Positions 47,585 to 60,788 of a stretch of 64,000 nucleotides of DNA are shown one piece after another. Every line of letters begins with the position of its first letter. Positions within the stretch are counted from its first letter, which is position 1. The position numbers and the translations under genes are program-made. The stretch lies in assembly GCA_021817325.1 (NCBI GenBank), contig JAKAVK010000022.1, forward strand, positions 65,077 to 129,076, written 5' to 3'. The notes below the pieces were generated by a model, which saw only the letters and a program-made list of their open reading frames with translations, was not told the DNA's origin and did not search any database. The DNA comes from Candidatus Micrarchaeota archaeon (lineage in GTDB: Archaea > Micrarchaeota > Micrarchaeia > Micrarchaeales > CABMGC01).

Positions 47585-47588
47585 AGTA

Positions 47589-50399
47589 TCATCTGTTCTC
47601 TTTCATCAGCCGTGCCGCAACATGTTGCAGTACGCCCCCATCCTCATAGTACTCCATTTCCAGCGGGGTGTCAATCCTTAGGACCGCATTGCCTATACTA
47701 CGCTTTCCAGAGCCGCGCTTATAATATCCAAACTGCACTTCCTGCATGGGCTCCAGCTTTGCGTCAGCCAGTATGTCTAAGCCCAGCGAGGGGTCGATCT
47801 GCAGATTGTCATAACCCTCCCCATCCCTGAACTGCAGCGGCATTATACCCATCCCGACAAGATTGCTCCGGTGTATCCTTTCAAAACTCTGCGCCAGTAC
47901 GGCCCTCACCCCAAGCATCATCGGCCCCTTCGCGGCCCAGTCCCTCGAGCTGCCCGAGCCGTACTCCTTGCCTGCTATGACCACAAGCGGCCTCCCCTCC
48001 CTGCGGTACCTGACCGAGGCATCGAAGATGCTCATCCTCTTCCCGTCTGGATAATGCAGCGTAAATCCGCCCTCATCGCCTTTCATAAGCAGGTTCTTTA
48101 TCCTGTTATTTGCAAAGGTACCGCGCATCATTACCTCGTGATTTCCCCTGCGCGACCCATAGGTGTTGAAGTCTGCCGGCCCGATTCCCTTATGCTCCAG
48201 ATACCTCCCTGCGGGGCTGTCTACCCCTATTGCACCTGCCGGTGAGATATGGTCCGTAGACACAGAGTCGCCGAAGACTGCAAGTACTGCGGCACCACGT
48301 ATACCTCCAATATTCCTCCTCCCTTCCTCTCCGAAGAAGGGTGGCAATTCTATGTAGGTGCTGCTGCGATCCCACTTGTACAGTATGCTCTCAGCATCCC
48401 TAAGTTTGTTCCAGTAGGGATTCACCTTGTATAATTCATTGCCATAGGCCTTCCTGAACATCTGCCTGTCGATATCCGCATTGATGACCTCATGTATCTC
48501 AGATGAGGAAGGCCATATATCCCTAAGGAATACCTGCCTTCCCTGCCCATCCCTGCCTAGAGGCTCGCGCTCAAGGTCTATCAACACGGTCCCTGCTATC
48601 GCAAATGCGATAACAAGCGGTGGGGACATAAGGTAATTCGCCCTGACATCCCTATGTATGCGGGCCTCGTAATTCCTGTTTCCGGACAGAACCGCCGCCA
48701 CCGCCAGATCATGTTTATTTATTGCATCACTCTGCCCCTCTATGAGTGGCCCGCTGTTGCCTATGCACGTTATGCACCCAAAACCGACCAACCCAAAGCC
48801 CATCTTGGCAAGAGGCTCTATGAGGTGCGCACGTTCGAGGTAATCCATCACCACCCTAGAGCCTGGTCCAAGGCTCGTCTTCACCTTATCTGTATTGACA
48901 CGCAATCCGCGTTCAAGTGCCTTCTTTGCAAGGAGACCAGCGGCGACCATCACTGCGGGGTTGCTGGTATTGGTGCAGCTTGTTATGGATGCTATTACGA
49001 CATCCCCGTCGGATAACACATAATCGCTGCCGCCATGACGCATCCTGACCGACCTTATCCCCTTTCTCTTCGGTGCGCCCTTTATCCTTCCGTTCTCAAC
49101 GGCAAGGCTCTCCGACGACCACCTAGTATAGTCGCTGCTGCTGAGTTTATGGTGGGCATAGCCCGCCTGACCGGCAGACTTCAACATGAATGCATCGTAG
49201 AAACTCTCCGCTATGCCCCATAGCGGCACCTCCTGTTTAGGCTGGCTTGGCCCTGAGACTGCAGGCACTATATCTCCAAGTTCGACCTCCAGCACATCGC
49301 TATATTGGATGGTCTTGTCACCCGCACCAAATATGCCCTGTGCCTCATAATAGCGCTTCACCAGCTCAATCTGCTCCCCGCTCCTCCCCGTCTGCCTCAT
49401 ATACCTCAGCGTCTCATCATCAACAGGGAAGATCGCCACAGTCGCTCCGTATTCTGGGCACATATTGGACAGCGTAGCCCTATCAGGAAGGGAGAGGCTG
49501 CGCAGCCCCGGGCCAAAGAATTCAACAAAGTTGTTGACGACCCCCCTCTCCCTCAGGATCCGCGTGAGCGTAAGTGCAAAGTCCGTAGCCGTTACCCCTT
49601 CCCGCAGCCTTCCCTCAAGGCGCACTCCAAGCACCTTCGGTGTGAGGAAAGGCACCGGCTCTCCCAGTACTGCCGCTTCGGCTTCTATGCCCCCCACGCC
49701 AAAGCCAACCACCCCAAGGCCATTTATCATCGTGGTATGTGAGTCGGTGCCAACTAGTGTATCTGGGAAAGCCATCACACCTGCGGCAGTCTCCTGCAGC
49801 CTCACGCACGGCGAGAGGAATTCAAGATTTATCTGGTGGCATATCCCGGCCGAGGGAGGAAACACGGTAAACTCGGAAAAAGCAGAATGGGCCCATTTCA
49901 GCAGGTGGTATCTCTCCTTGTTCCTGCCAAATTCCACCGACTGGTTCTTCTCAAGAGCGCCTGCGGCATTGAATGCATCCACCTGCACCGAGTGGTCTAT
50001 CACAAGATCCACAGGTATACGCGGCCGCACCATTCCCGCATCATGCCCTTTTCCTGCAATGTAGCTCCTCATTGCGGCGAGGTCAACCACTGCAGGAACG
50101 CCTGTAAAGTCCTGCATGAGGATTCTCGCTACCTTGAAAGGCACCTCGGCATCTCTAGGCTTCTTGGGGTTCCATCTGGAAAGTGCTGCAACATCCTCTA
50201 CTCTCACATGCCTGCCGTCGCAGTTTCTCAACAGGGATTCAAGCACGACCCTTATGGAGAAGGGCAGCCTATCAATATTTCCGAATCCCGCTTTCTGCAG
50301 CCGCTTCAAAGAGAAGTAGTTCACCCGCTTGCCCGTCGACAGGATGAGTTGCGATATAAAGTCAGAAGACCTGAAATTCCCATTCCTCTTGGTTGCCAT
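47589..50399 (-). CDS. acnA: Aconitate hydratase (AcnA/IRP type)
   Basis: MQDFTGVPAVVDLAAMR, VIDHSVQVD, GTDSHTTMINGLGV, ITSCTNTSNP, GCITCIGNSG and GKEYGSGSSRDWAAKG. Length is 936 aa. Confidence 0.95.
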   Translation of the reverse strand: MATKRNGNFRSSDFISQLILSTGKRVNYFSLKRLQKAGFGNIDRLPFSIRVVLESLLRNCDGRHVRVEDVAALSRWNPKKPRDAEVPFKVARILMQDFTGVPAVVDLAAMRSYIAGKGHDAGMVRPRIPVDLVIDHSVQVDAFNAAGALEKNQSVEFGRNKERYHLLKWAHSAFSEFTVFPPSAGICHQINLEFLSPCVRLQETAAGVMAFPDTLVGTDSHTTMINGLGVVGFGVGGIEAEAAVLGEPVPFLTPKVLGVRLEGRLREGVTATDFALTLTRILRERGVVNNFVEFFGPGLRSLSLPDRATLSNMCPEYGATVAIFPVDDETLRYMRQTGRSGEQIELVKRYYEAQGIFGAGDKTIQYSDVLEVELGDIVPAVSGPSQPKQEVPLWGIAESFYDAFMLKSAGQAGYAHHKLSSSDYTRWSSESLAVENGRIKGAPKRKGIRSVRMRHGGSDYVLSDGDVVIASITSCTNTSNPAVMVAAGLLAKKALERGLRVNTDKVKTSLGPGSRVVMDYLERAHLIEPLAKMGFGLVGFGCITCIGNSGPLIEGQSDAINKHDLAVAAVLSGNRNYEARIHRDVRANYLMSPPLVIAFAIAGTVLIDLEREPLGRDGQGRQVFLRDIWPSSSEIHEVINADIDRQMFRKAYGNELYKVNPYWNKLRDAESILYKWDRSSTYIELPPFFGEEGRRNIGGIRGAAVLAVFGDSVSTDHISPAGAIGVDSPAGRYLEHKGIGPADFNTYGSRRGNHEVMMRGTFANNRIKNLLMKGDEGGFTLHYPDGKRMSIFDASVRYRREGRPLVVIAGKEYGSGSSRDWAAKGPMMLGVRAVLAQSFERIHRSNLVGMGIMPLQFRDGEGYDNLQIDPSLGLDILADAKLEPMQEVQFGYYKRGSGKRSIGNAVLRIDTPLEMEYYEDGGVLQHVAARLMKENR

Positions 50400-50459
50400 C
50401 GTAACAAAATGGCGCTAAAAATTTAAAAAGGTGAATGGTGAGGTATTGTGTGTTTTGGA
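50400..50459. promoter_or_regulatory. Compact bidirectional promoter between acnA and citrate synthase
   Basis: A single AT-rich block AAAAATTTAAAAAGG lies about 20-30 nt from the acnA ATG (50399, minus strand). It also lies about 28-40 nt from the citrate synthase ATG at 50460. Confidence 0.4.
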
Positions 50460-51614
50460 ATGGAAGGAGAAGCGCCGCATATAATACATGGTCTTGAAGG
50501 GGTGTACTTCACAGAATCGAAGATATGCAAGGTGGACGGCACACTGGGCAAGCTATACTACAGGGGGTATCCGATAGGCGCGCTTGCCGCCAACTCCTCC
50601 TTCGAAGAGGTATGCTATCTCCTATTGAACGGGGCACTACCAACCAAAAAGCAGTTAAGGGCATTCGAGTCGCACATGAAAGCCGAACGCAAGCTGCCAA
50701 GACACATAGTAAAGACTATCGCAGAGATGACCGGCAAGGCGCATCCGACAGACATACTGCGTACCGCGGTCTCTTCACTGCCAACCTACGATCCGGAGGC
50801 ATATGAAAAGTCGCAGGATGCAAACCTGCGCAAGAGTGTGCGCCTAATATCCAAGATGGCGAGCATAACGGCGACGATAGGCAGATTCATGTGCGGCGGC
50901 AAGTATGTATACCCTAAAAGAAAGCTGAGCCATTCGGCAAACTTCCTGTACATGCTCACCGGAAAGGCCCCCGAAGAGAAACAGGCGAAGCTGCTTGATA
51001 CAATGATGATACTGCATGCAGAGCACAGCACCAATGCCTCGACCTTCGCAACATTGGTGACCGGATCGACTCTCGCCGACCTGTACGCTGCCATCACCTC
51101 CGGCATAGCAGCGTTGAAGGGGCCCCTGCACGGCGGCGCTGACGAGGCGGCCCTTCTAATGCTACGTGCGATAGGCAAGCCAGAAAATACAGAGGCATAC
51201 GTGGAGCACGCGCTGGAAGACAAGCAGAGGATAATGGGATTCGGCCATCGCATCTACAAAACATACGACCCACGCGCAAGGATAATAAAGGCGGACTTGG
51301 AGGCGCTGCAGAGCAGCGCATCGGAAGAGATAAGGGATCTTACAGCGATAGCGCTGAGGGTCGAGAAGCTTATGATAGACAAACTAGGCCAGAGCCGAGG
51401 GATATGGCCAAACATAGATTTCTTCGCAGGCCCAATATACACAGAGATGGGGATACACCCTGACCTGTTCACGCCGCTGTTTGCGGTAAGCAGGGTTCCG
51501 GGATGGTGCTCCCACATGCTGGAATACTGGCAGAACAACAGGCTGCTGCGCCCTCTGGAGCTTTACACAGGCCCACTGGATCTCGAGTACGTGCCTATAA
51601 GCAAGAGAAGATAA
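50448..51614 (+). CDS. gltA: Citrate synthase
   Basis: GLEGV...ES.I..VDG..G.L.YRGY, HAEH, GPLHGGA and GFGHRIYK..DPRA. The likely start is the ATG at 50460. Confidence 0.9.
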   Translation: MCFGMEGEAPHIIHGLEGVYFTESKICKVDGTLGKLYYRGYPIGALAANSSFEEVCYLLLNGALPTKKQLRAFESHMKAERKLPRHIVKTIAEMTGKAHPTDILRTAVSSLPTYDPEAYEKSQDANLRKSVRLISKMASITATIGRFMCGGKYVYPKRKLSHSANFLYMLTGKAPEEKQAKLLDTMMILHAEHSTNASTFATLVTGSTLADLYAAITSGIAALKGPLHGGADEAALLMLRAIGKPENTEAYVEHALEDKQRIMGFGHRIYKTYDPRARIIKADLEALQSSASEEIRDLTAIALRVEKLMIDKLGQSRGIWPNIDFFAGPIYTEMGIHPDLFTPLFAVSRVPGWCSHMLEYWQNNRLLRPLELYTGPLDLEYVPISKRR

Positions 51615-52796
51615 TCAGGAGTCGATCGCTTTCTGCACTGCCCGGGTGAATTCTTTGGTCCCAACGGTCTTCACTCCGACAAGCCCTCGTGCAAGATCTT
51701 GTGTCACTATGCCGCTTTTGACCACCCTGTCTACCGCATCCCTTATGGTTCCTGCAGCTTCCTTCCATCCGAGATGCTCGAGCATCATCGCACCGGCCAT
51801 GATCTCGCCTATAGGGTCTGCGACGTTCCTCCCTGCATATTTCGGTGCCGTGCCATGGACTGCCTCGAACATTGCCGCACTATCACCAATCTCCGCGCTG
51901 CCAAGCACGCCTATGTTGCCAACCAGCGCGCCTGCAGCGTCTGAGATGTAATCGCCATTCAGGTTCGGCGCAAGGATGATATCATAACTCCCCGGCTTTG
52001 CTATGAGCTGCTGGAACATATTGTCCGCTATCCTGTCATTCACAAGTATCCTGCCCTTCGGCGCCTTGACCGCGCCCCGCTCGGCAAGCTGCTCCTCTGT
52101 CACGGCCTTTGTGCCCAGCCTCTCAAGCACCGCCTCGTATGCCCACTCCCTAAATGCGCCTTCAGTATACTTCATTATGTTGCCCTTGTGCATTATGGTT
52201 ATCGACCTCCTCGAATTAGACAGCGCATATGCCGCTGCCATCCTGGCCACCCGCCGCGTCTTAAACCTGCTGATAAGCTTAATGCCGATGCCGGCATCAC
52301 TAGGCAAGACAACGCCAAGGTCCTTCTTAAGGAATGCCCGAAGTGCCGCGGCCTCGCGGCTAGCGTGCCGCCACTCTATCCCTGTGTATAGATCATCGGT
52401 ATTCTCGCGCATTATGACTAGGTCTACTGCCTCTGGTCTCTTCAAGGGGCTGTCGACCCCGGCAAAGTACCTGACCGGCCGTATGTTTGCATATAGATCA
52501 AGTTCCATCCTCAATGCGACGTTGAGCGACCTCTCCCCACCGCCTACTGGCGTGCGCAGCGGCCCTTTAAGGAGAAGCCCCCTCTCCCTCACCTTGCTTA
52601 GCGATTCCTCAGGGAGGCGCTTGCCGAATTCCTCGACCGCGCTATCGCCAAGGAAGACCTCTTCCCAGACTATCCTGCGACCGCTGTACGCTGCTTCTAC
52701 AGCCGAGTCAATCACTGCGATCGAACTGCCTATCACCTCAGCGCCTATCCCGTCTCCCTTAGCAAACAGGACCCGTGCCGACTTGCCGGATGCCAT
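51615..52796 (-). CDS. icd: Isocitrate dehydrogenase (NADP-type)
   Basis: KGDGIGAEV, SLNVALR, ENTDDLY, NLNGDYISD and HGTAPKYAG. I chose the internal Met at 52796 (MASGKSARV). The ORF-track start at 52856 would leave only 15 nt to the divergent giant gene and would add an odd hydrophobic leader. Confidence 0.85.
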   Translation of the reverse strand: MASGKSARVLFAKGDGIGAEVIGSSIAVIDSAVEAAYSGRRIVWEEVFLGDSAVEEFGKRLPEESLSKVRERGLLLKGPLRTPVGGGERSLNVALRMELDLYANIRPVRYFAGVDSPLKRPEAVDLVIMRENTDDLYTGIEWRHASREAAALRAFLKKDLGVVLPSDAGIGIKLISRFKTRRVARMAAAYALSNSRRSITIMHKGNIMKYTEGAFREWAYEAVLERLGTKAVTEEQLAERGAVKAPKGRILVNDRIADNMFQQLIAKPGSYDIILAPNLNGDYISDAAGALVGNIGVLGSAEIGDSAAMFEAVHGTAPKYAGRNVADPIGEIMAGAMMLEHLGWKEAAGTIRDAVDRVVKSGIVTQDLARGLVGVKTVGTKEFTRAVQKAIDS

Positions 52797-52871
52797 AACA
52801 CCATTCACGAGCAAAAGACTATAAATACCAAGTATCTGAAGATATAGCAAGCTCATCTAATACAACTGTGC
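52797..52871. promoter_or_regulatory. Bidirectional promoter between icd and the giant surface protein gene
   Basis: TATAAATA (52820..52827) lies 24-31 nt from the icd ATG on the minus strand. GATATAGC (52841..52848) lies 24-31 nt upstream of the ATG at 52872. Both spacings fit leaderless archaeal promoters. Confidence 0.45.
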
Positions 52872-55800
52872 ATGCGTATGAAAACTAGAAGCTTCTTCCT
52901 CGCTGCTTTAATCCCGTCATTACTGATGCTGTTCTCGTCCCTGCCGCTGCACTATATCCAAAACCCAGCCTCAATTCCGCACGCGAATTCAACAATACTC
53001 AACCGCACCAGAGCTGAGGCTGCATACGGGAACGTGCTCACGAGCTCTGCGCGCAGCGGAGGCCTTGCCAATAGTACGCAGTACGGGGTAAGCCGGATAT
53101 TCCCAAACTCCACATACAAAGCAACCAAGTTCATTGCCGCCGCAGCCCTTGCGAGAAACTCAAGCGCGGGAGAATGGCAGGCAAGCCAGCTGGAGAACAC
53201 ATCGACCCCGTGCGGTCTGCGGTCATCGTATTATACTGGCACTTGGGCAACAAATAGCCTTTCAGGGGCAGGTCCTGAGGCCCTTGTCACTGCAGGTGCC
53301 AAAACAAACGCAACGCAGATATTTCACTGCCCTCTCATGCTAGTGAGAACAGGCCTGCAGAACGGCGCATCTGGGAATCTAGCCACATACAATTGGGGTG
53401 GATACGTGGTTGCAACCAATTTCAGCAACCCACAGCCCAACATCACAGCAATAAACGGATCTTGGGTGGTTCAGACTGCAGCGCCCAGCAACAGCCCCGT
53501 GTACTCATCGCAATGGATTGGGATCGGGGGGTTCTTCGATTACGGCAACTTCTCAGATTATACTCTGATACAGGATGGAACCAGTTCGGAATACGACACC
53601 TCAACTTCAGGGAAACCCTCCTACTACGCATGGTATGAACTGCTGCCACAGGGCTCAGTCGAACTGTCGACAACAAGTTACCCGGTAGCGCCTAACGATA
53701 TAATAAACACCAGCATACACCTCATAAGTGGCAACACGTGGAACATAACGATCAGGGATCACAACAAGACCAAGAATTGGACCTATTCAAAAGTGGTGGT
53801 ATACAATTCGTCAAAGTTGTCTGCAGAGATGATAGATGAGAGACCGGAGATATGCTACTTTTTCTGCTCCCTGACCAATCTCTCTGATTTCGGCATCGCC
53901 CGATTTGGCAATGATTACAGCAAGGTGGGTAATACAATATACGTGGCAATGAACGGCATCTCCAAGCCGATCGGCGCTTTCAATTATAAAAAAGTGTCAA
54001 TGCTGACAAGCTCCGGCACGCAGTACTTCGCCACACCACTAAACATGAGCAGCGACAACACAAGCTTCGAGATGATGTTTGGGCCCATAATAGCCCCATC
54101 GCCAGCGGCGTCAGACAGCGGCGTACGTTACATCAACCTGACCGCCACCGCCGGAGGCGGTCCGTATTCCTACCGCTGGTATGTAAACGGGAATGGGGTG
54201 GGGGCGAACTCCGACGTACTGAGGTTCAACTGGAACGCATCGACAAACGCGTCCACAAACTACGTATATGTTGACGTGCTGAACTATACTACCAACGCCC
54301 TGGTAGCAAGGTCCCTTAATGACACCGTGATGCAGAACAGTCCCATGGCCACGCCAAATATAACCTCCAGCGCAAATGTCGTTGACGCAGGACAATTCTT
54401 CTTCATTAACGCCACAGACTCAGGAGGCACGCCGCCGTATCTCTACAACTTCACGATATACAGCACAAGCAGCACACAACCGTTCTTAAACGGCGCGTTC
54501 TACGGATACAATACAATATCAGTATATGCCATAATATACCCTCCTGGCAATTATTTTGCCAACGTGGTAGTATCCGATTCAGCCTCGCCTGCCGCGGTAA
54601 GGAGCTCTCAGGATACAAATATCATACATATAAACCGGCAGCCAACACTTTATGTGAGTGCGCTCAATATGCAAACCCAGTACCTCTCCTATATCGATGA
54701 AGGGGAAGTAAACACAATAAACTACACTGCAACGGTGCGCGGTGGCACGGGTCCGTATACGATAAATTTCTTGAACGGCGGCTTTAACGTATTGCAGAGC
54801 AATAGCCTGCTGCCCATTGGCGGAGAAGCCAACTACGATCTGAACGTTAACTCCATTGGCACATACTCCCTTATCAGCGAGGCCACAGACACCGGAACAA
54901 CCTCACCTTACTACCTATACTCATACAATTACACGATAGTTAACCCTGCGCTTGCAAAACCCACGATAATGGTCATGGCGAGCAATACTGGTGAATACTC
55001 GTCCTCGCATATAAATGCGAGCAAATTGGATTACGGCCAGTATATATACGTAAACTCCACTGAAACCGGCGGCACATCCCCCTATACGTACAACTTCATC
55101 GTATCAAATGCTGTGACTAATTCTGTTGTTAACAGTATCCTTGCGAGTTCATCTGCCTACGTGCAAAACAGTAGTACAAGCCAGGCTTTTGTCAAACTTT
55201 CGCCTGGCACATACCGTGCAAACGTGGTGGTAACGGACAGTTCAGACCTTCCTGAAAACAGCGTATCGGCCAGCTCTAATGAGTTCACAATCTTCAACGC
55301 ACCTTCAATATCCTTAATCCCAAACAGCCTCACGCTCCAAAACGGACAGAATGAGACATACACAATCACTGTGTATAACGGGGTAGGTCCGTTTATTGTT
55401 GGGTTATATAATGTGGGCAATGGCCTCCAACTTGGCAGCAACATGATAATTGCCTCGGGAGGCACAAATACGATCTCGTTCAATGTCTCTTCCAAATACG
55501 GCAGCATACTGACTTATAACGCGGTTGCGACAGATACGGGCACCTCAGTTCCATTTACATTCAATTCCGTGCAGAGTGAAATAGCAATAAACCCTCTTTA
55601 TAGGGTTCCGTCATTCCAGGTCTCACCGCATTCGCCTCTTGGGAACTGGATATCGTTCGCCGTCCAGAACACAGTCTCGATGACCGTGCCGGTCAATGCG
55701 CTTAATCTCTCCACAAGCGGAGTGGAAACCCTGTTCTCCATAGCACCCACCATACCGCTGGGGGATTTGGCATCTGAGTCATTCACTATAACAACATCGC

Positions 55801-58800
55801 AGCAGAGCAACATAATAGGCTTCAACGGCGTATCTGGGACCGCCGCCCAGAGCCCGGTAGCCGTATTGCTAGTGCAAGTCGGATCTTCTACCGCCAATGG
55901 GATCATAGTGCAGCTGACGTCCTCCAACACGCTCTTCAGCTATTCGGGAAACGTATATACGGGCACTCCGCAGACAGGATGGGAGGCATCATGGTACGAA
56001 GGCAATGCGAGCATCGATGGCGGTGTTGTCCAAGGTCTGCAGCAATGGGCAGATATATTCAACGCAAACTACATGGCCGCTAATGTGATCGCAGCCGGTA
56101 TAGAGTACGGTTTCAACAATAATGCGTCTTCTGGTACGATCTATCTGGGAAACGTGGTGATAAATGACAGGTCATATGTCCCAATACCTCCTTCATCAAG
56201 GAACGAGGTGCCCATAATCACATCAAACGGGCTGTCGCCCGGCGGATGGGCGGAACTCAACAACAGTCTCGGCTGGAACGGCGTGCAACTTACGCTGCTG
56301 CCAACCAACTACACATCAAGCGGCAACTTTACATTCTATGCACTCATAGGCTCGGTGCTTAACGGCGCAATCCTGCGGAACACCCCTGCAGCGACTAAGT
56401 CGCTGCAGACCTACGCGACAGGGTACGCGTTCCCCGAAACCAACTCCATTTCAGCATCAGTCAATGCATCTCCATACTCTGCAGCAGGCTCCGTTCCAAT
56501 GTCTACTTCGATCGTATCCGGTCTGGATGGCGGAGGGGTATCATTCGCAAGTTTCTCGAATGGCAGCAGTGACAATCTGCTCAGGCTGACGCACACCCAG
56601 TTGCCCGGGCTTACGAGCAGCTACGGCAGTTCTGGGGAGTCAGAAAGCCTCTGGCTTACTGGTTTCCCTGTATTCGACCAGGCGTCAGGCGTAAACAACT
56701 TCTCCGTAGCAGATGCCGGAGGCGCGTACGAAGCAACGTTCAACACTCCTATACAGGAGTACTCAAGCGCAGGCAGCAGGAACCTGGACATGCTGATAAA
56801 GATGCTCGGCCAGAATGTAGCGGTCCTTAGCGAAAACGCGCCTACGGCAAACATAGTGCCAACCAGCGTCACATATGGAGGGGGGATAACGCTTGCGGAC
56901 CAGCTCCTGCCCATGGCAACAGTATACCTGGACCATAACGTGACCAACTCCTCTGTAGACGGGTTCAACGTCGAATTGACCGGCATCGGTACGCCTGTCA
57001 ATGGCCTGTCGAATGCCTCGATAGAGGTCTTCTATAAAGGTACGCTTACAAACACCACCCAGATGCAGCCTTATACGATACGCAAGTTCGATGTGTCGGG
57101 CAATGCGGTCTTTGTGAGGATCAACCAGACCCTTGCATCCCCGGCGTGGGCCCAAATACAGCTATTTAGCAACCTCTTCAACCTGACCAATGGCAAGTCA
57201 TTCAACCAGACGAGGGACCCGGGCTGGAATGTCAACCTAATGTGGACCAACACCTCCTCATCCGGCGGCACATCCCATGCGCTTGCGGGCCTAGTCGTAT
57301 GGAATGAATCACCCACATCGCTGCTACCGGGGCAGAGTTTCAACTTTATCGGAGACACTCCAGGCTGGAAGGTCAAGCTGGAGAGCAACGACCTAATAGA
57401 TCAGTTGTCAGGGCCCTACTCCAACATGAGTTTTTCTACATACAACATATCAGGGTTCCTAGAGTTCTTCTACCCGTACCAGAATCCTGCTCAGAAGGGC
57501 CTCGCCTACGCAGTCGCAAACGTGTATAACTATAATGCATTGGGCTTTGCCGCTACTGGATCAAACGAGCTGCTCAATACTACCGCAATAGTTGAGCCGC
57601 AGAATCTGCTGGACGTGATCAGCGACTACAACTTCAACGTAACCCCTGTGGAATCCGGTCGCACAATCTACCCAACCCCTCCAAACTACGTGCTTTACAA
57701 CCTCGATACATATGAGCTGTCCACATACAATGCGCTTAGCCAGAGCGCTGCCATAAACCTGAGTGCTGACATAAATGCCGGGGTCGTAATCCGCCTGCTA
57801 AACAATGGGCTCAGTGCCAATTATCTGTCAAGTACCGGGGGCAACATTACAATAGACGCGGCATCCAGCCAAGCGGTTGCCGTAGTCGCCTTCAATGCCT
57901 TCAATACGAACGCGACTGAGAGGTATGTAGTTCTCCAGAATGTTTCAGAGATTCTACTTGGCAATGATTTCTTACCGCCGGGCGACAACGCACCTCCATA
58001 TCCGGGCATCACCGTTGAAGTCTACGACACTTCAAACGTTCTTTCACCGGCAGGTAACAGCATACTCCTTGGCAAGCTTACATATGCCGGCCCATATCTG
58101 ATGTACTATGCCACAAACAAAACGTCAGACAGGCTATATCCGTACTTCAGCACAGAGAACGCCATGTCAGCAAACGTGGTATATAATCCAAGCTATCCTG
58201 ACAACGGCATACTCGCCCTCTCCAGGCCAACTACCTCAAATACTGCAAGGTCTGCGTATTATACCCTGACCCTGTCACAGCCAGTGCTGCCGGGCACAAA
58301 CCTACCTGGGGCAAACATAATACTACAGCTTACAAATTCATCCCATCCTATCGATGCCCTAAATCCATACCTGCTCAACTACAGCTCCGGATTTGCGTCC
58401 CCGTTCGCCTATCAGAGCTCGCAATCAACAACTCTTGCAGCCGCAAGCCGGTTTAGGACCGAGAGCGGCACAATCGTAGGCACAACAGATGGCATAAAGT
58501 TCTTCGGCAATGAGAGTACTTCAAATTCATTTAACGCCACAGCATCATATCTGGACGTGCTCCCATACCTGGACGAGCTCTCGATCGGCGTGTCACCGAG
58601 CAACGCCACAACTCCTGCGACGGTGATAGGCACTGATGTGCTATTCAATGCGAGTGCGGTTGGCTCCCTGAGCAACGTGAGTTCGATGTCTTATGCCTTC
58701 TATTCCAACAGCACCGAAGAACTGGGCGGTATCTCGGGTGACGTTTCAACCACTCTGTTTCCGATTCTGATAATCAACATAGGTGCCGCGCACCCGGTCA

Positions 58801-60245
58801 TACTGCGGCCGCTCAGCACCGATCTTTACAGTGCAGGCAACGGGATGTTTATTGGTACGCCAGCGGAAGACTCATGGATAGTCACCCTTTATGACAACGG
58901 AAGAATAACTGCGCCGTTGCAAAGCATCAACTCCACGCCGCACTCGCTCTATTACTGGAGCCATATGCTCCAGTCATTAGGCTACGATCCGACTGTCAGT
59001 GCAATAGGGGTCGGGGAAGGGTTCTCATACCTAAAGAACGAATCAACAATCGTCGTGAAAAACGTCACCCTAAACAATGTGACCTATGGGATAGCATACA
59101 ACTCCATAACTCAATCCTCCGCAGTGTCACTGCTGAATGCATCGTCGACCAAGAGCTCACAGGTGAACTTGTCTGGCGATGGAACAATGCTGCGTTTCTC
59201 CACCAATGTAAGTAACACCATACCAATCCGGGTTGCCGTATACAACTTAACATCAGCAAGCCTGCCGCCGATCGCAGGACTGACAAGGCTTGTTGCGTTG
59301 AACTTCTATACAACCTCGCCATACAACAAGAGCCTCAACATCACCATATCCGCTACTGTAAGGTATCCATGCAGCGCACCTGCCGGCGAGATAGCCCCAT
59401 ACGTACTGACCAACGGCTCATGGACCAAGGTGTCTGCCTACAACGTCTCATCGTCTGCCTGCACAGTAGAATTTAGCATACCTGCGGACCCGGTCATCGG
59501 CATATTCCAGTCGGCCCAAAGCAGCGGCGGAAGCGCAGGCGGCGGAAGCGGAGGCGGCGGAAGTGGAGGCGGCGGAGGAGGAGTTGGCGGCGGAGGCGGC
59601 GGCCAGTTCCTACCTACTGTAGTCAAGTTCAACACATCAAACGAGACTGGTTACAAGATATACAATTTCACTCAGGATAATCAGGAGAAGGTCGGGATAA
59701 ACGGAACGATCTTCACCATAGTGGAGAACTTCATCTCCCCGGATCAGGCAGGCATCTCGGTAAACGGGGATTCCTACACGCTCTCCGATGGCGAGATTGT
59801 ATCATTGACCGGGCATCCAGGCTACCACCTTGGCCTCCTGAACATCTCATACCTGCCTATAATAAACCTAGTAAATATAGAGATATATGAATCCATATCC
59901 AGCCCACCTAAAGCCAATAACACTGTGGTGGCAAATACAATAAAACCAGTGAACACTGTCCCGACCAACAGCATCAACACCACTAAGCATTCTTATAACA
60001 ATACCGCTGCAAATGCCACCGCAACAGTAGCAAAGCATCAAAACCCGTATCCAATACTGCCATACGCGCTGGCAGCAGCTGTCATCGTAGTTGTTGCGGT
60101 TACGTATCTTATATACCGTAATAGAAAACAAAGAGCCCCACCAGAGGAGCCAGAGCCGCCAGTAGCCCCTCCACCTGCGGGCCACCAGCCGCCGCCTGAC
60201 ATTCAAGGCGCAGTCCAGCAGCCTGTGCATCCACCAGCGCAATAG
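52872..60245 (+). CDS. Giant (2457 aa) membrane-anchored surface glycoprotein. It has an N-terminal glutamic peptidase (G1/eqolisin) domain and PKD-like repeats.
   Basis: Single uninterrupted ORF. The architecture in order: signal/TM (FFLAALIPSLLMLFSSLP), G1 peptidase motifs (see the next feature), five GG(T/G)xPY-type repeats, a long N/S/T-rich region, a Gly/Ser linker, a C-terminal TM helix and a Pro-rich tail. Sequon density is very high. Confidence 0.9.
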   Translation: MRMKTRSFFLAALIPSLLMLFSSLPLHYIQNPASIPHANSTILNRTRAEAAYGNVLTSSARSGGLANSTQYGVSRIFPNSTYKATKFIAAAALARNSSAGEWQASQLENTSTPCGLRSSYYTGTWATNSLSGAGPEALVTAGAKTNATQIFHCPLMLVRTGLQNGASGNLATYNWGGYVVATNFSNPQPNITAINGSWVVQTAAPSNSPVYSSQWIGIGGFFDYGNFSDYTLIQDGTSSEYDTSTSGKPSYYAWYELLPQGSVELSTTSYPVAPNDIINTSIHLISGNTWNITIRDHNKTKNWTYSKVVVYNSSKLSAEMIDERPEICYFFCSLTNLSDFGIARFGNDYSKVGNTIYVAMNGISKPIGAFNYKKVSMLTSSGTQYFATPLNMSSDNTSFEMMFGPIIAPSPAASDSGVRYINLTATAGGGPYSYRWYVNGNGVGANSDVLRFNWNASTNASTNYVYVDVLNYTTNALVARSLNDTVMQNSPMATPNITSSANVVDAGQFFFINATDSGGTPPYLYNFTIYSTSSTQPFLNGAFYGYNTISVYAIIYPPGNYFANVVVSDSASPAAVRSSQDTNIIHINRQPTLYVSALNMQTQYLSYIDEGEVNTINYTATVRGGTGPYTINFLNGGFNVLQSNSLLPIGGEANYDLNVNSIGTYSLISEATDTGTTSPYYLYSYNYTIVNPALAKPTIMVMASNTGEYSSSHINASKLDYGQYIYVNSTETGGTSPYTYNFIVSNAVTNSVVNSILASSSAYVQNSSTSQAFVKLSPGTYRANVVVTDSSDLPENSVSASSNEFTIFNAPSISLIPNSLTLQNGQNETYTITVYNGVGPFIVGLYNVGNGLQLGSNMIIASGGTNTISFNVSSKYGSILTYNAVATDTGTSVPFTFNSVQSEIAINPLYRVPSFQVSPHSPLGNWISFAVQNTVSMTVPVNALNLSTSGVETLFSIAPTIPLGDLASESFTITTSQQSNIIGFNGVSGTAAQSPVAVLLVQVGSSTANGIIVQLTSSNTLFSYSGNVYTGTPQTGWEASWYEGNASIDGGVVQGLQQWADIFNANYMAANVIAAGIEYGFNNNASSGTIYLGNVVINDRSYVPIPPSSRNEVPIITSNGLSPGGWAELNNSLGWNGVQLTLLPTNYTSSGNFTFYALIGSVLNGAILRNTPAATKSLQTYATGYAFPETNSISASVNASPYSAAGSVPMSTSIVSGLDGGGVSFASFSNGSSDNLLRLTHTQLPGLTSSYGSSGESESLWLTGFPVFDQASGVNNFSVADAGGAYEATFNTPIQEYSSAGSRNLDMLIKMLGQNVAVLSENAPTANIVPTSVTYGGGITLADQLLPMATVYLDHNVTNSSVDGFNVELTGIGTPVNGLSNASIEVFYKGTLTNTTQMQPYTIRKFDVSGNAVFVRINQTLASPAWAQIQLFSNLFNLTNGKSFNQTRDPGWNVNLMWTNTSSSGGTSHALAGLVVWNESPTSLLPGQSFNFIGDTPGWKVKLESNDLIDQLSGPYSNMSFSTYNISGFLEFFYPYQNPAQKGLAYAVANVYNYNALGFAATGSNELLNTTAIVEPQNLLDVISDYNFNVTPVESGRTIYPTPPNYVLYNLDTYELSTYNALSQSAAINLSADINAGVVIRLLNNGLSANYLSSTGGNITIDAASSQAVAVVAFNAFNTNATERYVVLQNVSEILLGNDFLPPGDNAPPYPGITVEVYDTSNVLSPAGNSILLGKLTYAGPYLMYYATNKTSDRLYPYFSTENAMSANVVYNPSYPDNGILALSRPTTSNTARSAYYTLTLSQPVLPGTNLPGANIILQLTNSSHPIDALNPYLLNYSSGFASPFAYQSSQSTTLAAASRFRTESGTIVGTTDGIKFFGNESTSNSFNATASYLDVLPYLDELSIGVSPSNATTPATVIGTDVLFNASAVGSLSNVSSMSYAFYSNSTEELGGISGDVSTTLFPILIINIGAAHPVILRPLSTDLYSAGNGMFIGTPAEDSWIVTLYDNGRITAPLQSINSTPHSLYYWSHMLQSLGYDPTVSAIGVGEGFSYLKNESTIVVKNVTLNNVTYGIAYNSITQSSAVSLLNASSTKSSQVNLSGDGTMLRFSTNVSNTIPIRVAVYNLTSASLPPIAGLTRLVALNFYTTSPYNKSLNITISATVRYPCSAPAGEIAPYVLTNGSWTKVSAYNVSSSACTVEFSIPADPVIGIFQSAQSSGGSAGGGSGGGGSGGGGGGVGGGGGGQFLPTVVKFNTSNETGYKIYNFTQDNQEKVGINGTIFTIVENFISPDQAGISVNGDSYTLSDGEIVSLTGHPGYHLGLLNISYLPIINLVNIEIYESISSPPKANNTVVANTIKPVNTVPTNSINTTKHSYNNTAANATATVAKHQNPYPILPYALAAAVIVVVAVTYLIYRNRKQRAPPEEPEPPVAPPPAGHQPPPDIQGAVQQPVHPPAQ
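53391..54080 (+). other. Glutamic peptidase (MEROPS G1 / Pfam Peptidase_A4-like) domain of the giant protein, residues about 174-403
   Basis: It aligns by eye to scytalidoglutamic peptidase. NWGGYVV matches SNWGGA. QWIGIGG...TLIQDG...YYAWYELLPQ matches AWVGIDG...AILQTG...YDAWYEWYPE. SAEMIDERPE matches NAEFIIEDFE. The catalytic Gln (Q234, codon 53571..53573) and Glu (E319) are both present. Confidence 0.75.
59520..59603 (+). repeat. GGC/GGA-rich low-complexity tract encoding a 28-residue Gly/Ser linker
   Basis: It encodes SSGGSAGGGSGGGGSGGGGGGVGGGGGG, with near-tandem GGCGGCGGAAG(C/T)GGA units. Confidence 0.8.
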
Positions 60246-60290: not shown

Positions 60291-60788
60291 ATGGCGCAAG
60301 GTGCAAAGGGAAAGAAACGGCCAGGAAGGCAGAGCATCCAGGGTCAGCAAGGAAGGCAAGGGCAGGAAGGGCCACAAGCCCCAGCATATCAGAAGAAGCC
60401 GACAGCCGCAGTGTTGCTGTTTATCATAGGCGGCATAGTGATATTCATAGTCGCTGCACTCTACTTGTACAGTGCATCGGTGGTCTCATCACTCAATACC
60501 ACTGCGATCTCAAGGTATGCGGGCAACGCTTCGATAAATGCCACGACCCTCAGCGTGATCCGCAGTTCCATATCCTCCCTCGAGCTACTGGCGTTCATCA
60601 GCTTGGTCTCTGGGCTGGTCCTTGCAGCCTGCGGCATACTTTTGTACCTGAACCCTGCAAGATCAAGAATGCTTGGCATAGTCGGTGTGGTCTTCTCCCT
60701 GCTCAGCCTGACGACTCTCGGCGGTCTGGTTGTCGGTTTCATACTGGCAATAATAGGCAGCATACTGGCCCTACGCTACAGCCCCTAG
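60291..60788 (+). CDS. Hypothetical membrane protein with a basic Gln/Gly-rich N-terminus
   Basis: N-terminal GKKRPGRQSIQGQQGRQGQEGPQ, then 3-4 hydrophobic helices. It starts 45 nt downstream of the giant gene. Confidence 0.5.
   Translation: MAQGAKGKKRPGRQSIQGQQGRQGQEGPQAPAYQKKPTAAVLLFIIGGIVIFIVAALYLYSASVVSSLNTTAISRYAGNASINATTLSVIRSSISSLELLAFISLVSGLVLAACGILLYLNPARSRMLGIVGVVFSLLSLTTLGGLVVGFILAIIGSILALRYSP

What the first reader, a model, noticed from the sequence alone, without database searches (positions are those of the whole stretch)
52872..60245. Giant 2457-aa, sequon-dense, membrane-anchored surface protein that fuses a glutamic peptidase to repeat and unknown domains
This is the largest ORF in the window, at 7.4 kb (about 11.5% of the window).

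Architecture read from the translation:
- Signal/TM segment (residues about 8-25).
- A pro-region of about 140 aa.
- G1 peptidase domain (residues about 174-403).
- Five PKD/Ig-like repeats (residues about 405-905).
- About 1300 residues of N/S/T-rich sequence with no motif I recognise, containing an internally duplicated module.
- A 28-residue Gly/Ser linker.
- A distinct module of about 150 aa.
- One TM helix.
- A Pro-rich cytoplasmic tail.

By hand count there are about 21 N-x-S/T sequons in the first 440 residues alone. The gene sits in a window that also encodes AglB.

A protease-headed, heavily glycosylated, C-terminally anchored protein of this size is not a described archaeal S-layer or adhesin type that I know of. 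In a small-genome, possibly episymbiotic acidophile it is a prime candidate for the S-layer protein, or for a cell-cell contact or host-attachment and surface-remodelling factor.
Basis: partly seen in the sequence, partly recalled or inferred. Interest (0 to 1): 0.8.

Follow-up and report, generated by a model that had tools for sequence, protein, structure and literature searches.

The report
Protease-headed giant S-layer-like membrane protein
This is a real 260-kDa archaeal surface glycoprotein that joins an acid (glutamic) protease and five Ig-like domains to a copy of the organism's own S-layer protein core and a membrane anchor, so it is probably a protease docked in the cell's protein coat, not the coat protein itself.

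Summary
The 2457-aa ORF is real. The identical product lies on 12 independently assembled contigs, and a strain variant differs by 47 nucleotides with no indels (dN/dS 0.22).

- hydrophobic N-terminus;
- basic pro-region (pI 9.8);
- G1/eqolisin domain (PF01828, E 1e-17; catalytic Gln234 and Glu323 align to solved G1 peptidases);
- five Ig-like repeats;
- Gly linker, one TM helix and a Pro-rich tail.

There are 90 sequons, against about 47 expected.

The main new result concerns the "1300 unknown residues". Residues about 1150-1900 are homologous (E to 1e-140) to the central core of the roughly 1000-aa Micrarchaeota S-layer protein family (SLP_Mh type). The split terminal PF05124 domain that defines those proteins is missing, and two paralogous modules flank the core instead.

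The core is mosaic. Its first half is 68% identical to one canonical SLP and only 32% identical to the orthologous giant. Its second half is closest to that giant.

Best reading: a membrane-tethered, S-layer-associated acid protease, not the principal S-layer protein. I found no description of this fusion in the literature I could search. Verdict: new variant of a known kind; the function is inferred only.

The parts
52872..60245 (+). Whole ORF, 2457 aa (260.6 kDa, pI 4.85). Public gene calls start at Met3 (52878).
   Evidence: strain variant with dN/dS 0.22
52890..52949 (+). N-terminal hydrophobic segment (residues 7-26), either a signal peptide or a signal anchor. Whether it is cleaved was not determined.
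   Evidence: Kyte-Doolittle scan; preceded by the basic MRMKTR
52950..53366 (+). Basic pro-region (residues 27-165; 10 K/R against 4 D/E; pI 9.8) with conserved Cys motifs TPCG (112) and IFHCP (150).
   Evidence: The same basic-pro, acidic-G1 contrast is seen in P0002, P0004, P0005 and P0237.
53367..54083 (+). G1 (eqolisin) glutamic peptidase domain, residues 166-404. Catalytic Gln234 is at 53571-53573 and Glu323 at 53838-53840. G177, G217, G220, G236, W254 and P259 are conserved. The position equivalent to D43 is Gly219.
   Evidence: PF01828 E 1.3e-17; family profile against PDB 1y43_B 4e-11 and 1s2b_A 3.3e-9, with Gln and Glu aligned
54084..55592 (+). Five Ig-like beta-sandwich repeats with a GGxxPY motif: residues 405-489, 491-588, 593-691, 693-807 and 810-907.
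   Evidence: self-similarity; repeat profile; profile hits to Ig-like PDB chains, 5lxk 4.7e-6 and SYG-2 1e-3; only weak SprB, PKD or Ig Pfam hits
55671..56195 (+). Module X1 (residues 934-1108), paralogous to X2. Fold unknown.
   Evidence: no Pfam or PDB hit; AF2 pLDDT below 50
56319..57350 (+). S-layer-protein core, N-half (residues 1150-1493). It is 68% identical to the canonical Micrarchaeota SLP P0152/P0221 and 71% identical at DNA level to the SLP gene in L086.
   Evidence: AF2 pLDDT about 80-90
57351..58571 (+). S-layer-protein core, C-half (residues 1494-1900). Its nearest relative is the orthologous giant P0002 (40%); identity to P0152 is only 15-42% in 60-residue windows.
   Evidence: AF2 pLDDT about 65-90
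58587..59117 (+). Module X2 (residues 1906-2082), paralogous to X1. It sits where canonical SLPs carry their C-terminal S-layer half-domain.
59124..59519 (+). D1, a beta-sandwich domain with a conserved Cys pair (residues 2085-2216). Also present, in places duplicated, in P0002, P0004 and P0005.
59520..59603 (+). 28-residue Gly/Ser linker (residues 2217-2244). It varies in length between strains: P0011 lacks 5 residues.
59622..59912 (+). D2, the conserved anchor-cassette domain (residues 2251-2347; motif N[FY]I[ST]P..G[IV][ST][IV]...SY[IL]P). It is shared with otherwise unrelated surface proteins.
   Evidence: AF2 pLDDT about 90; no significant PDB fold match
59913..60053 (+). N/T-rich stalk (residues 2348-2394; 8.5 sequons per 100 aa).
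60054..60116 (+). Transmembrane helix (residues 2395-2415).
60117..60242 (+). Basic, then Pro-rich, cytoplasmic tail (residues 2416-2457). No sequons.

Best explanation
Shown:
- The gene encodes a 260-kDa modular surface protein under purifying selection. It most likely belongs to a Micrarchaeon; that taxonomy is inferred.
- Domain order: N-terminal hydrophobic segment; basic pro-segment; G1 glutamic endopeptidase with an intact Gln/Glu dyad; five Ig-like domains; module X1; the central core of the lineage's S-layer protein (SLP); paralogous module X2; a C-terminal anchor cassette.
- The anchor cassette is: Cys-pair beta-sandwich D1, 28-residue Gly linker, domain D2, N/T-rich stalk, one TM helix, short Pro-rich tail.

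Inferred:
- It is a type I membrane glycoprotein. The whole ectodomain carries sequons; the TM helix and tail carry none.
- It most likely works as an S-layer-associated cell-envelope proteinase.
- The C-terminal helix holds it in the membrane.
- The SLP-derived core docks it into or against the S-layer lattice by the contacts SLP subunits use with each other.
- The Ig-like array holds out an acid-active glutamic protease. That protease is made as a zymogen and activated by removal of the basic pro-segment at low external pH.
- The protease would degrade extracellular or host-surface proteins, or process envelope proteins, for an organism type reported to lack amino-acid biosynthesis.
- The mosaic history of the core suggests that the part contacting the lattice has been exchanged with the resident SLP gene, which would keep the two compatible.
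For: Real gene:
- 12 independent contigs carry it.
- A strain variant has 28 synonymous and 19 non-synonymous changes, no indels, dN/dS 0.22.

Protease:
- PF01828 E 1.3e-17.
- The family profile matches the solved G1 peptidases 1y43_B (4e-11) and 1s2b_A (3.3e-9). LIQ(D/T)G aligns to the catalytic Gln and I(D/E)E to the catalytic Glu.
- The four conserved glycines, W67 and P72 listed for eqolisins (PMC6154417) are present.
- The pro-region has pI 9.8 and the G1 domain pI 4.9. The same contrast appears in four homologues and matches the basic prosegments of eqolisins.

S-layer core:
- An exhaustive phmmer search of residues 928-2098 found 105 cluster representatives. Most are proteins of about 1000 aa, aligned from their residues about 85-140 to about 800-960.
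- 9 of 9 tested carry PF05124 as a domain split between their N- and C-termini.
- The word-based search gave 82 hits, 79 of them with PF05124. Several are named 'S-layer protein [Candidatus Micrarchaeaceae/Micrarchaeota archaeon]'.
- AF2 models residues 1151-1909 as an all-beta structure, with pLDDT of 70-93 in most 10-residue blocks.

Mosaic core:
- Residues 1150-1493 are 68% identical to SLP P0152, which is the nearest neighbour in 500 of 500 bootstraps. The same stretch is only 32% identical to giant P0002.
- Residues 1494-1870 are nearest to giant P0002 (359 of 500 bootstraps; reciprocal 446 of 500).
- Identity to P0152 falls from 85% to 19% across residues about 1490-1510.
- A third giant, P0237, has a core nearest to a different SLP, P0190 (55-61%).

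Anchor cassette:
- D2 plus stalk plus TM recurs in P0002, P0004, P0005, P0006, P0094 and the small protein P0033, which carry different passenger domains.

Topology:
- 90 sequons against 47 expected; none in the TM helix or tail.

Biological fit:
- Ca. Micrarchaeum harzensis lacks most amino-acid biosynthesis, and how its SLP is anchored is an acknowledged unknown (PMC8975820; bioRxiv 10.1101/2021.04.28.441871).
Against: - No expression, localisation or activity data exist for this protein.
- The residue equivalent to D43 of scytalidoglutamic peptidase is Gly219. The D43A mutant keeps only about 20% activity. However, Gly is the majority state among prokaryotic relatives (58 of 84 motif matches), including small stand-alone enzymes.
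- The giant lacks the split PF05124/TIGR01564 domain of true SLPs. If that domain makes the lattice contacts, the core may not integrate at all.
- Topology is unresolved. In SLPs the two termini meet in one domain. Here one end must reach the membrane and the other must carry a long Ig arm, so either the arm or the anchor has to cross the lattice, or the protein sits at pores or defects.
- X1 and X2 could not be modelled (pLDDT below 50).
- Foldseek gave no informative match for the core or the anchor.
- Giants of this type were seen in only three sequence clusters. A scan of JGI metagenomes with two short peptide patterns from the giant-specific half of the core found none. This is therefore not a universal Micrarchaeota component.
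- I could not show that a canonical SLP is encoded in the same genome as this window.
Confidence: 0.5

Rival explanations
1. It is mainly a structural membrane anchor or stalk of the S-layer, the missing TM partner of the anchorless SLP and analogous to SlaB for SlaA. On this reading the G1 domain serves only to process the protein itself or the SLP during envelope assembly.
For: - It combines an SLP-derived core with a TM anchor.
- Canonical SLPs such as P0152 end without a TM helix.
- The authors who described SLP_Mh speculate that a second, TM-containing protein acts as a stalk, and the anchoring is marked unknown in PMC8975820.
- Exchange of the core N-half with the resident SLP fits a partner that must keep matching the SLP.
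Against: - Giants with an SLP core are rare: three clusters against about 100 SLP clusters (JGI scan empty). A universal anchor should occur wherever the SLP does.
- A 240-aa enzyme with a fully conserved dyad, held on a five-domain Ig arm, is an elaborate appendage for self-processing alone.
- The same G1-plus-Ig head sits on passenger domains with no SLP core: P0004, P0005, P0006, L024 and L063.
Confidence: 0.2
2. It is a host-contact factor. The long glycosylated arm reaches the wall-less Thermoplasmatales host, the Ig-like and X modules bind it, and the protease remodels host surface proteins at the attachment site.
For: - It is a giant ectodomain with Ig-like repeats in a lineage whose cultured members are episymbionts.
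- Surface remodelling and filaments are seen at contact sites (PMC8975820).
- There is precedent in SPEARE proteins of Nanohaloarchaeota: a protease, adhesion domains and a C-terminal TM (PMC6642349).
Against: - No recognised adhesin or lectin domain was detected.
- Nothing links this particular organism to a host.
- This reading does not explain why the protein contains, and exchanges sequence with, an S-layer protein core.
Confidence: 0.15
3. The G1 domain is a non-catalytic beta-sandwich (lectin-like or structural), and the protein is simply a large S-layer-associated glycoprotein.
For: - D43 is replaced by Gly.
- The Pfam match covers only positions 2-169 of the 206-position model.
Against: - The Gln/Glu dyad, the four structural glycines, W67 and P72 are invariant across all seven G1 domains of the giant family.
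- A zymogen-like basic pro-segment is conserved.
- Gly at the D43 position is typical of prokaryotic homologues, including stand-alone ones.
Confidence: 0.07
4. It is the principal lattice-forming S-layer protein of this organism.
For: - It contains most of an SLP core and is heavily sequon-decorated.
- Colossal SLPs exist elsewhere (bioRxiv 10.64898/2026.08.21.746120).
Against: - It lacks the PF05124/TIGR01564 terminal domain present in all 9 tested members and 79 of 82 listed homologues.
- A canonical SLP of 995 aa (P0152) is 68% identical to the core N-half, on a contig of similar G+C (53.1% against 51.8%). This implies that such a protein exists in this or a sister lineage.
- The proven abundant SLP of a cultured Micrarchaeon is the 101-kDa type.
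Confidence: 0.05
5. It is an assembly chimera or a decaying pseudogene.
For: - The SLP-like segment could in principle be mis-joined from the SLP gene.
- One relative, P0003, has an alternative SLP-type C-terminus that may be chimeric.
Against: - The identical ORF lies on 12 contigs up to 143 kb, from different assemblers and samples.
- The SLP-like stretch is only 71% identical at DNA level to the nearest SLP gene found.
- A strain variant keeps the frame over 7.4 kb, with dN/dS 0.22.
- The ortholog P0002 has the same architecture end to end.
Confidence: 0.02

Closest known systems
G1 / eqolisin glutamic peptidases (scytalidoglutamic peptidase, aspergilloglutamic peptidase, bacterial pepG1; Pfam PF01828)
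   Same: - The family model is matched well above threshold.
- The catalytic Gln/Glu dyad, the structural glycines, W67 and P72 are present.
- There is a basic pro-segment.
- Close relatives come from acid-mine and other acidic sites.
   Different: - Known enzymes, and about 90% of the genomic relatives found here, are small secreted proteins of 230-310 aa. Here the domain heads a 2457-aa membrane-anchored protein.
- D43 is Gly.
- The pro-region is about 140 aa, longer than the N-terminal leaders of about 25-60 residues in the small stand-alone relatives.
Micrarchaeota S-layer protein SLP_Mh family (about 1000 aa; PF05124/PF05123, TIGR01564; Gfrerer et al., bioRxiv 10.1101/2021.04.28.441871)
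   Same: - Residues about 1150-1900 are homologous to SLP residues about 115-850, at 31-47% identity overall and 68% in the first half to the nearest member.
- The composition is similarly sequon-rich and Cys-poor.
   Different: - It lacks the N- and C-terminal halves of the S-layer domain.
- It has X1 and X2 modules in their place.
- It carries a protease and Ig arm at the N-terminus, and a TM anchor that SLPs lack.
Cell-envelope proteinases (lactococcal PrtP/lactocepin, Pyrococcus pyrolysin, and the STABLE protease bound to the Staphylothermus tetrabrachion S-layer stalk). Recalled from general knowledge, not tested here.
   Same: - The logic is the same: a pre-pro protease, spacer domains and a cell-surface anchor.
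- The protease is displayed at or beyond the wall for extracellular proteolysis.
- In Staphylothermus the protease is physically part of the S-layer.
   Different: - Those are subtilisin-like serine proteases.
- Their anchors differ, and none contains an S-layer-protein core within the same polypeptide.
SPEARE proteins of Nanohaloarchaeota (PMC6642349)
   Same: They are giant DPANN surface proteins with an N-terminal protease region, adhesion-type repeats, a TM helix near the C-terminus and a cytoplasmic C-terminal part.
   Different: - SPEARE proteins have a serine protease, laminin-G and toxin-like domains, and a large cytoplasmic restriction-endonuclease domain.
- Here the protease is G1, the tail is 42 Pro-rich residues, and the core is S-layer-derived.
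- There is no detectable sequence relationship.
Altiarchaeal hamus subunit (PMC4460559)
   Same: It is a precedent for an S-layer-protein relative being rebuilt into a specialised surface structure.
   Different: - The hamus protein keeps S_layer_N and S_layer_C-type regions and forms filaments.
- It has no protease and no TM anchor cassette of this kind.
Colossal 292-kDa S-layer protein of Pyrobaculum arsenaticum (bioRxiv 10.64898/2026.08.21.746120)
   Same: It is of similar size, multidomain, rich in Ig-like domains and extends far from the cytoplasmic membrane.
   Different: - It is the lattice-forming protein itself, in Thermoproteota, and the abstract describes no enzyme domain.
- No homology was tested or expected.

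Membership tests
G1 (eqolisin) glutamic peptidases, Pfam PF01828 / MEROPS G1 | Match to the family model above its curated threshold | tested here: met
   64.4 bits against a cut-off of 22.3, E 1.3e-17, residues 174-352. The match appears only when the segment is scanned alone; the whole-protein scan returns nothing.
G1 (eqolisin) glutamic peptidases, Pfam PF01828 / MEROPS G1 | Catalytic dyad Gln53 / Glu136 (SCP-B numbering) | tested here: met
   The profile alignment to 1s2b_A and 1y43_B places Gln234 (LIQDG) on the ILQTG Gln and Glu323 (MIDE) on the IIE/IVE Glu. Both are invariant in all 7 family domains.
G1 (eqolisin) glutamic peptidases, Pfam PF01828 / MEROPS G1 | Conserved G8, G41, G44, G55, W67 and P72 (PMC6154417) | tested here: met
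   G177, G217, G220, G236, W254 and P259.
G1 (eqolisin) glutamic peptidases, Pfam PF01828 / MEROPS G1 | Asp43 (supporting residue; D43A retains about 20% activity) | tested here: not met
   Gly219 occupies this position (WIGIGG). Gly is the majority state among prokaryotic relatives (58 of 84 motif matches), including small stand-alone enzymes. D43 is not part of the catalytic dyad.
G1 (eqolisin) glutamic peptidases, Pfam PF01828 / MEROPS G1 | Made as a pre-pro enzyme with a basic prosegment | tested here: met
   A hydrophobic N-terminus is followed by a 139-aa segment of pI 9.8, ahead of an acidic domain of pI 4.9. The contrast is conserved in four homologues.
G1 (eqolisin) glutamic peptidases, Pfam PF01828 / MEROPS G1 | Two seven-stranded beta-sheet 'half-pipe' fold; pepstatin-insensitive activity below pH 4 | not tested
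Enzymatic activity cannot be tested with these tools.
Micrarchaeota S-layer protein (SLP_Mh type) | Homology to the central core of the family | tested here: met
   E down to 2e-140. The alignment covers SLP residues about 85-960.
Micrarchaeota S-layer protein (SLP_Mh type) | Terminal S-layer domain (PF05124 split between N- and C-termini; TIGR01564 N-terminal match) | tested here: not met
   9 of 9 tested SLPs hit PF05124, and P0152 hits TIGR01564. No segment of the giant hits either model. Homology starts only at SLP residue 115.
Micrarchaeota S-layer protein (SLP_Mh type) | About 100 kDa, no TM anchor, forms the lattice, among the most abundant proteins | tested here: not met
   Size and anchor were tested and not met: the giant is 260.6 kDa with a C-terminal TM helix. 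Lattice formation and abundance cannot be tested here.
PKD domain (PF18911 / PF00801) | Match to a PKD model above threshold | tested here: not met
   PKD_4 E 0.078, 13.5 bits against 27. Single repeats give only weak SprB, K319L-PKD, Ig_7 or Ig_3 hits. The repeat profile hits Ig-like PDB chains, so 'Ig-like' is the supportable label.
SPEARE proteins | Serine protease, laminin-G adhesion domains and a cytoplasmic type III restriction-enzyme domain | tested here: not met
   No such Pfam domains were found in any segment. The cytoplasmic tail is 42 residues.
PGF-CTERM / archaeosortase-type lipid anchoring | C-terminal PGF motif, TM helix and short basic tail, recognised by NCBIfam/TIGRFAM models | tested here: not met
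   The C-terminal segment gives no significant NCBIfam hit (E at least 0.015 and all below cut-off, none an archaeosortase-signal model). The sequence shows no PGF motif, and a 42-residue tail follows the helix.

The most novel reading that the evidence does not exclude
The giant is a 'Trojan subunit' of the Micrarchaeota S-layer. Its SLP-derived core takes the place of a normal subunit in the lattice. Recurrent recombination with the resident SLP gene keeps it compatible. In this way it supplies both the long-sought membrane anchorage of the S-layer and a lattice-embedded, outward-facing acid protease used to feed on, or remodel, the host surface.
Probability: 0.2. Interest if true: 0.8.

Novelty: new variant of a known kind. 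Interest (0 to 1): 0.6.

Why it matters
How acidophilic Micrarchaeota anchor their S-layer, obtain amino acids and engage their hosts are open questions. This gene offers one concrete, testable candidate that touches all three:
- a membrane-anchored paralogue of the S-layer protein;
- carrying an acid protease;
- with a recombination signature that ties part of it to the resident SLP.

It also widens the known contexts of the small G1 peptidase family, which has been described almost only as free secreted enzymes.

There is a practical lesson as well. A whole-protein HMM scan of this long, compositionally biased protein returns nothing, which explains why public records carry no annotation. 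Scanning by segment recovers a 1e-17 domain.

Tried and rejected
- **Whole-protein Pfam and NCBIfam scans:** 0 hits. Segments were needed.
- **phmmer of the G1 segment against PDB:** only a spurious myoglobin hit. A family profile was needed.
- **The search for homologous proteins with the C-terminal 377 aa:** one hit only, presumably because poly-Gly words swamped the candidate list. This largely wasted a search.
- **BLAST self-comparison of the whole protein:** returns only the identity hit. A chunked, masked comparison was needed.
- **Pfam on the SLP-core, X1, X2, D1 and D2 segments, and on the C-terminus of P0003:** nothing.
- **Profile of X1/X2 against PDB, and hhalign against the C-terminal cassette:** nothing.
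- **Foldseek against PDB for the 1171-aa central model and the C-terminal model:** no match with E of 0.001 or better. X1 and X2 were modelled at pLDDT below 50, probably because the MSA forced SLP termini onto them.
- **A suspected remnant of the SLP mature N-terminus ('VPII..NG') upstream of the core:** not supported by BLAST, so dropped.
- **Exact look-up of SLP P0152 to see whether it lies in the same assembly as the window:** not on record. Its cluster-mate is in a different sample.
- **Scan of JGI metagenomes with giant-specific patterns:** no relatives. The X-module alignment was too variable to scan with.
- **Literature search for the assembly and run accessions:** nothing.
- **NJ bootstrap trees in Biopython:** timed out. 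Replaced by nearest-neighbour bootstrapping.
- **Synteny between the window and other giant loci:** none.

Full report

The window holds a single uninterrupted ORF at 52872..60245 (+) of 2457 codons, the longest in the window.

It is not an assembly accident:
- The same product, called from Met3 as 2455 aa, lies on 12 contigs up to 143 kb. They come from an NCBI MAG (GCA_027363355.1), Logan assemblies of unrelated runs, and ENA assemblies.
- A strain variant (L087) aligns codon for codon over 7365 nt. It has 28 synonymous and 19 non-synonymous changes, no indel or stop, and dN/dS of 0.22. The reading frame is therefore under purifying selection.
- Another variant lacks five residues of the Gly linker.

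The protein is 260.6 kDa with pI 4.85 and has only 6 Cys.

It carries 90 N-x-S/T sequons, against 46.8 +/- 5.9 in shuffles. Twenty of them lie in the first 440 residues. Density is 3.66 per 100 aa, against 0-0.63 for the nine non-surface proteins counted in the window. The TM helix, the tail and the linker have none.

**2. Anatomy, from N to C (residue numbers of the 2457-aa ORF)**

- *7-26:* hydrophobic segment after a basic MRMKTR. Whether it is cleaved could not be tested.
- *27-165:* a basic segment (pI 9.8) with two conserved Cys motifs. It precedes an acidic G1 domain (pI 4.9). The same contrast appears in P0002, P0004, P0005 and P0237 and matches the basic prosegments described for eqolisins (PMC6154417).
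- *166-404:* the G1 domain.
  - PF01828 scores 64.4 bits (cut-off 22.3, E 1.3e-17), but only when the segment is scanned alone. The whole protein gives no Pfam or NCBIfam hit at all.
  - A profile of the seven G1 domains of the giant family (A1) matches the solved aspergilloglutamic (1y43_B, 4e-11) and scytalidoglutamic (1s2b_A, 3.3e-9) peptidases.
  - In that alignment the catalytic Gln corresponds to Gln234 and the catalytic Glu to Glu323.
  - The four structural glycines, W67 and P72 are present. D43 is Gly219, but Gly is the majority state among prokaryotic relatives (58 of 84 motif matches), including small stand-alone enzymes.
- *405-907:* five repeats of about 95 aa with a GGxxPY motif.
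  - They reach no Pfam threshold (PKD_4 E 0.078).
  - As a profile they hit Ig-like chains in the PDB.
  - 'Ig-like' is justified; 'PKD' is not.
- *934-1108 (X1) and 1906-2082 (X2):* paralogous modules (E 2e-5 within the protein). They align cleanly with the two copies in P0002. They have no Pfam or PDB relative and were not modelled.
- *About 1150-1900:* the S-layer-protein core, discussed in section 3.
- *2085-2216 (D1):* a beta-sandwich with a Cys pair.
- *2217-2244:* a 28-residue Gly/Ser linker.
- *2251-2347 (D2):* a well-conserved beta domain.
- *2348-2394:* an N/T-rich stalk.
- *2395-2415:* the TM helix.
- *2416-2457:* a basic, then Pro-rich, tail.

The cassette from D2 through the TM helix recurs on proteins with quite different passenger domains. 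These include P0004, P0005, P0006, P0094 and the 376-aa P0033. It is therefore a generic anchor of surface proteins in these archaea.

**3. What the 'unknown 1300 residues' are**

An exhaustive phmmer search of residues 928-2098 against 1.84 billion cluster representatives gave 105 hits. Most are proteins of about 1000 aa. They align from their residues about 85-140 to about 800-960, with E-values down to 5e-89.

- Nine of nine tested carry PF05124 ('S-layer like family') as one match spanning residues about 37-1000. That is a domain assembled from the N- and C-terminal ends of the chain.
- A second search returned 82 relatives, 79 of them with PF05124. Several are named 'S-layer protein [Candidatus Micrarchaeaceae / Micrarchaeota archaeon]'.
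- The closest, P0152, also passes TIGR01564.

This is the family of SLP_Mh, the 101-kDa, glycosylated, highly abundant S-layer protein shown for Ca. Micrarchaeum harzensis (bioRxiv 10.1101/2021.04.28.441871).

The giant contains the core of such a protein but not its terminal S-layer domain. X1 and X2 occupy the flanking positions instead.

AlphaFold2 with a 45-sequence alignment models residues 1151-1909 as an all-beta structure, with pLDDT of 70-93 in most 10-residue blocks. Foldseek finds nothing similar in the PDB (E at least 0.014).

**4. The core is a mosaic**

*First half (residues 1150-1493).*
- The giant is 68% identical to the canonical SLP P0152/P0221, which is the nearest neighbour in 500 of 500 bootstraps.
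- The same stretch is only 32% identical to its own ortholog P0002.

*Second half (residues 1494-1870).*
- The nearest relative is P0002 at 40% (359 of 500 bootstraps; reciprocal 446 of 500).

*The boundary.*
- Identity to P0152 falls from 85% to 19% between residues about 1490 and 1510.
- At DNA level only this first half matches the SLP gene of L086, at 71% over 1043 nt. The exchange is therefore old, not an assembly join.

A third giant lineage, P0237, has a core nearest to a different SLP, P0190 (55-61% in both halves).

Outside the core, the G1 and Ig head and the anchor cassette are orthologous among the giants. The simplest reading is a single architecture whose SLP-like part has repeatedly exchanged sequence with resident SLP genes. 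This is an inference from identity patterns; no formal recombination test was run.

**5. Distribution**

The genome scan found 427 G1 relatives among species representatives and kept the 80 best loci. Most of the G1-containing ORFs in those loci (roughly two-thirds) encode proteins of 230-310 aa with an N-terminal hydrophobic segment.

The longest G1-domain proteins (1000 aa or more, with the G1 domain near the N-terminus) are in Micrarchaeota loci. One of them, L004, is the same protein as P0004. There the G1 and Ig head sits on various passenger domains, such as beta-propellers and ConA-like regions.

Giants that also carry an SLP core form only three 90%-identity clusters (Q, P0002, and P0003/P0237). 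A JGI metagenome scan with patterns specific to the giant's core found none.

**6. Organism and context**

Neighbouring genes encode aconitase, citrate synthase, isocitrate dehydrogenase, malate:quinone oxidoreductase, gyrase A and B, Lhr, RadA, DUF6114 and DUF92. There is no synteny with other giant loci.

No record names the organism. Micrarchaeota is inferred from three observations:
- the SLP family;
- the nearest G1 relatives;
- a 69% match of one neighbouring gene to a Micrarchaeota MAG.

**7. How it most likely works**

*Shown:*
- the gene is real and under purifying selection;
- the G1 domain has intact catalytic residues and a basic pro-segment;
- there is an SLP-derived core with a mosaic history;
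- there is a generic C-terminal TM anchor cassette;
- sequons are confined to the predicted ectodomain.

*Inferred:*
- It is a type I membrane glycoprotein that sits in or against the S-layer through its SLP-like core.
- It presents, on a five-domain Ig-like arm, an acid-active glutamic endopeptidase that is activated by loss of the pro-segment.
- In short, it is a cell-envelope proteinase built on S-layer parts.
- Likely substrates are extracellular or host-surface proteins. Cultured Micrarchaeota lack most amino-acid biosynthesis (PMC8975820). Envelope proteins are another possibility.

*Unresolved:*
- Which face of the lattice the head occupies. In SLPs the two chain ends meet in one domain, whereas here one end must reach the membrane.
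- Whether the missing PF05124 domain is needed for lattice contacts.

**8. Rivals**

- A mainly structural S-layer anchor (0.2). This is attractive because SLP anchoring is an acknowledged unknown. It is weakened by the rarity of the gene, and by the same head occurring on proteins with no SLP core.
- A host-contact or remodelling factor (0.15).
- A non-catalytic G1 domain (0.07).
- The principal S-layer protein (0.05).
- An artefact or pseudogene (0.02).

**9. Comparison with what is known, and novelty**

By membership, the N-terminal domain is a G1 peptidase; all tested defining features are met except D43. The protein as a whole is not an SLP_Mh-type S-layer protein, because the defining terminal domain was tested and is absent. 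It is also not a SPEARE protein.

Functionally it resembles cell-envelope proteinases, and the protease-bearing S-layer stalk of Staphylothermus (general knowledge). Among DPANN archaea it resembles the giant, C-terminally anchored, protease-containing SPEARE proteins (PMC6642349).

Full-text searches combining G1, eqolisin or PF01828 with Micrarchaeota or ARMAN found no paper that links them.

I rate it a new variant of a known kind, with interest 0.6. The architecture and its evolutionary signature are surprising and give testable handles on S-layer anchoring and DPANN nutrition. However, every functional statement is still inference from sequence.

Noticed in passing
window 52872-60245 compared with L087 706-8073: All 47 nucleotide differences between the two strain variants fall in codons 1-1249. 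Codons 1250-2457 (3.6 kb) are identical. The same haplotype recurs in the fragment P0013. This looks like a recent recombination or sweep boundary inside the gene, within the first half of the SLP core.
   Followed up: partly
window 3-3008 (- strand), running off the left edge: This ORF has at least 1002 codons and a hydrophobic start to its sequence. It carries a WWDYG motif near position 494 and a sub-threshold STT3/PglB/AglB core hit (PF21436, 20.7 bits against 23, E 6.5e-4). It is probably a divergent AglB oligosaccharyltransferase, truncated by the window. The whole-protein Pfam scan again returned nothing.
   Followed up: partly
window 31181-32809 (+): A 542-aa ORF with a CARDB domain (E 2e-7) and the highest sequon density seen in the window (29 sequons, 5.35 per 100 aa). 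It is a second predicted surface glycoprotein. It lacks the D2 anchor domain.
   Followed up: partly
P0003 (L085 1392-6752) compared with P0237: Two members of one 90%-identity cluster share the G1 head, the Ig repeats and the SLP core but end differently. P0003 ends with a canonical SLP C-terminus (…LIVVGSKYVNSV…RILVAGYSANETVQAGNQFI). P0237 ends with the Gly linker, D2, a TM helix and a Pro-rich tail. This is either a real recombinant between a giant and an SLP gene or a metagenome assembly chimera at the shared core.
   Followed up: partly
window 52872-60242 (annotation behaviour): hmmscan of the full 2457-aa protein reports no family at E up to 1. The 271-aa segment alone gives PF01828 at 1.3e-17. 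The precomputed Pfam field for the public protein is also empty. Long proteins with biased composition, like this one, are systematically under-annotated.
   Followed up: yes
window 46235-52856: A cluster of TCA-cycle genes lies immediately upstream: malate:quinone oxidoreductase-like, aconitase, citrate synthase and isocitrate dehydrogenase. The isocitrate dehydrogenase gene is divergent from the giant, with only about 15-21 nt between the two called start codons. The giant's promoter must therefore overlap the isocitrate dehydrogenase coding start; a TATAAATA box lies at 52821-52828.
   Followed up: no
window 60291-60788 (+): A DUF6114 gene (165 aa) starts 45 nt after the giant's stop codon on the same strand, and is present in all three fetched contigs that carry the giant. 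It is absent downstream of the P0002-type giant (L084), so the linkage is not conserved across lineages.
   Followed up: partly
P0094, P0086, P0101, P0107 (hits): Pieces of the SLP core also occur in other large proteins that have no G1 head. Examples are P0094 (2145 aa, SLP core plus D2 anchor) and tandem arrays of a sub-domain of about 90 aa (P0101, P0107). Micrarchaeota appear to shuffle S-layer modules widely among surface proteins.
   Followed up: partly
window 41087-42427 (+) and tRNAs at 42447, 43541 and 46087: A 446-aa ORF with no Pfam match lies next to three tRNA genes (Rfam, 61-66 bits).
   Followed up: no
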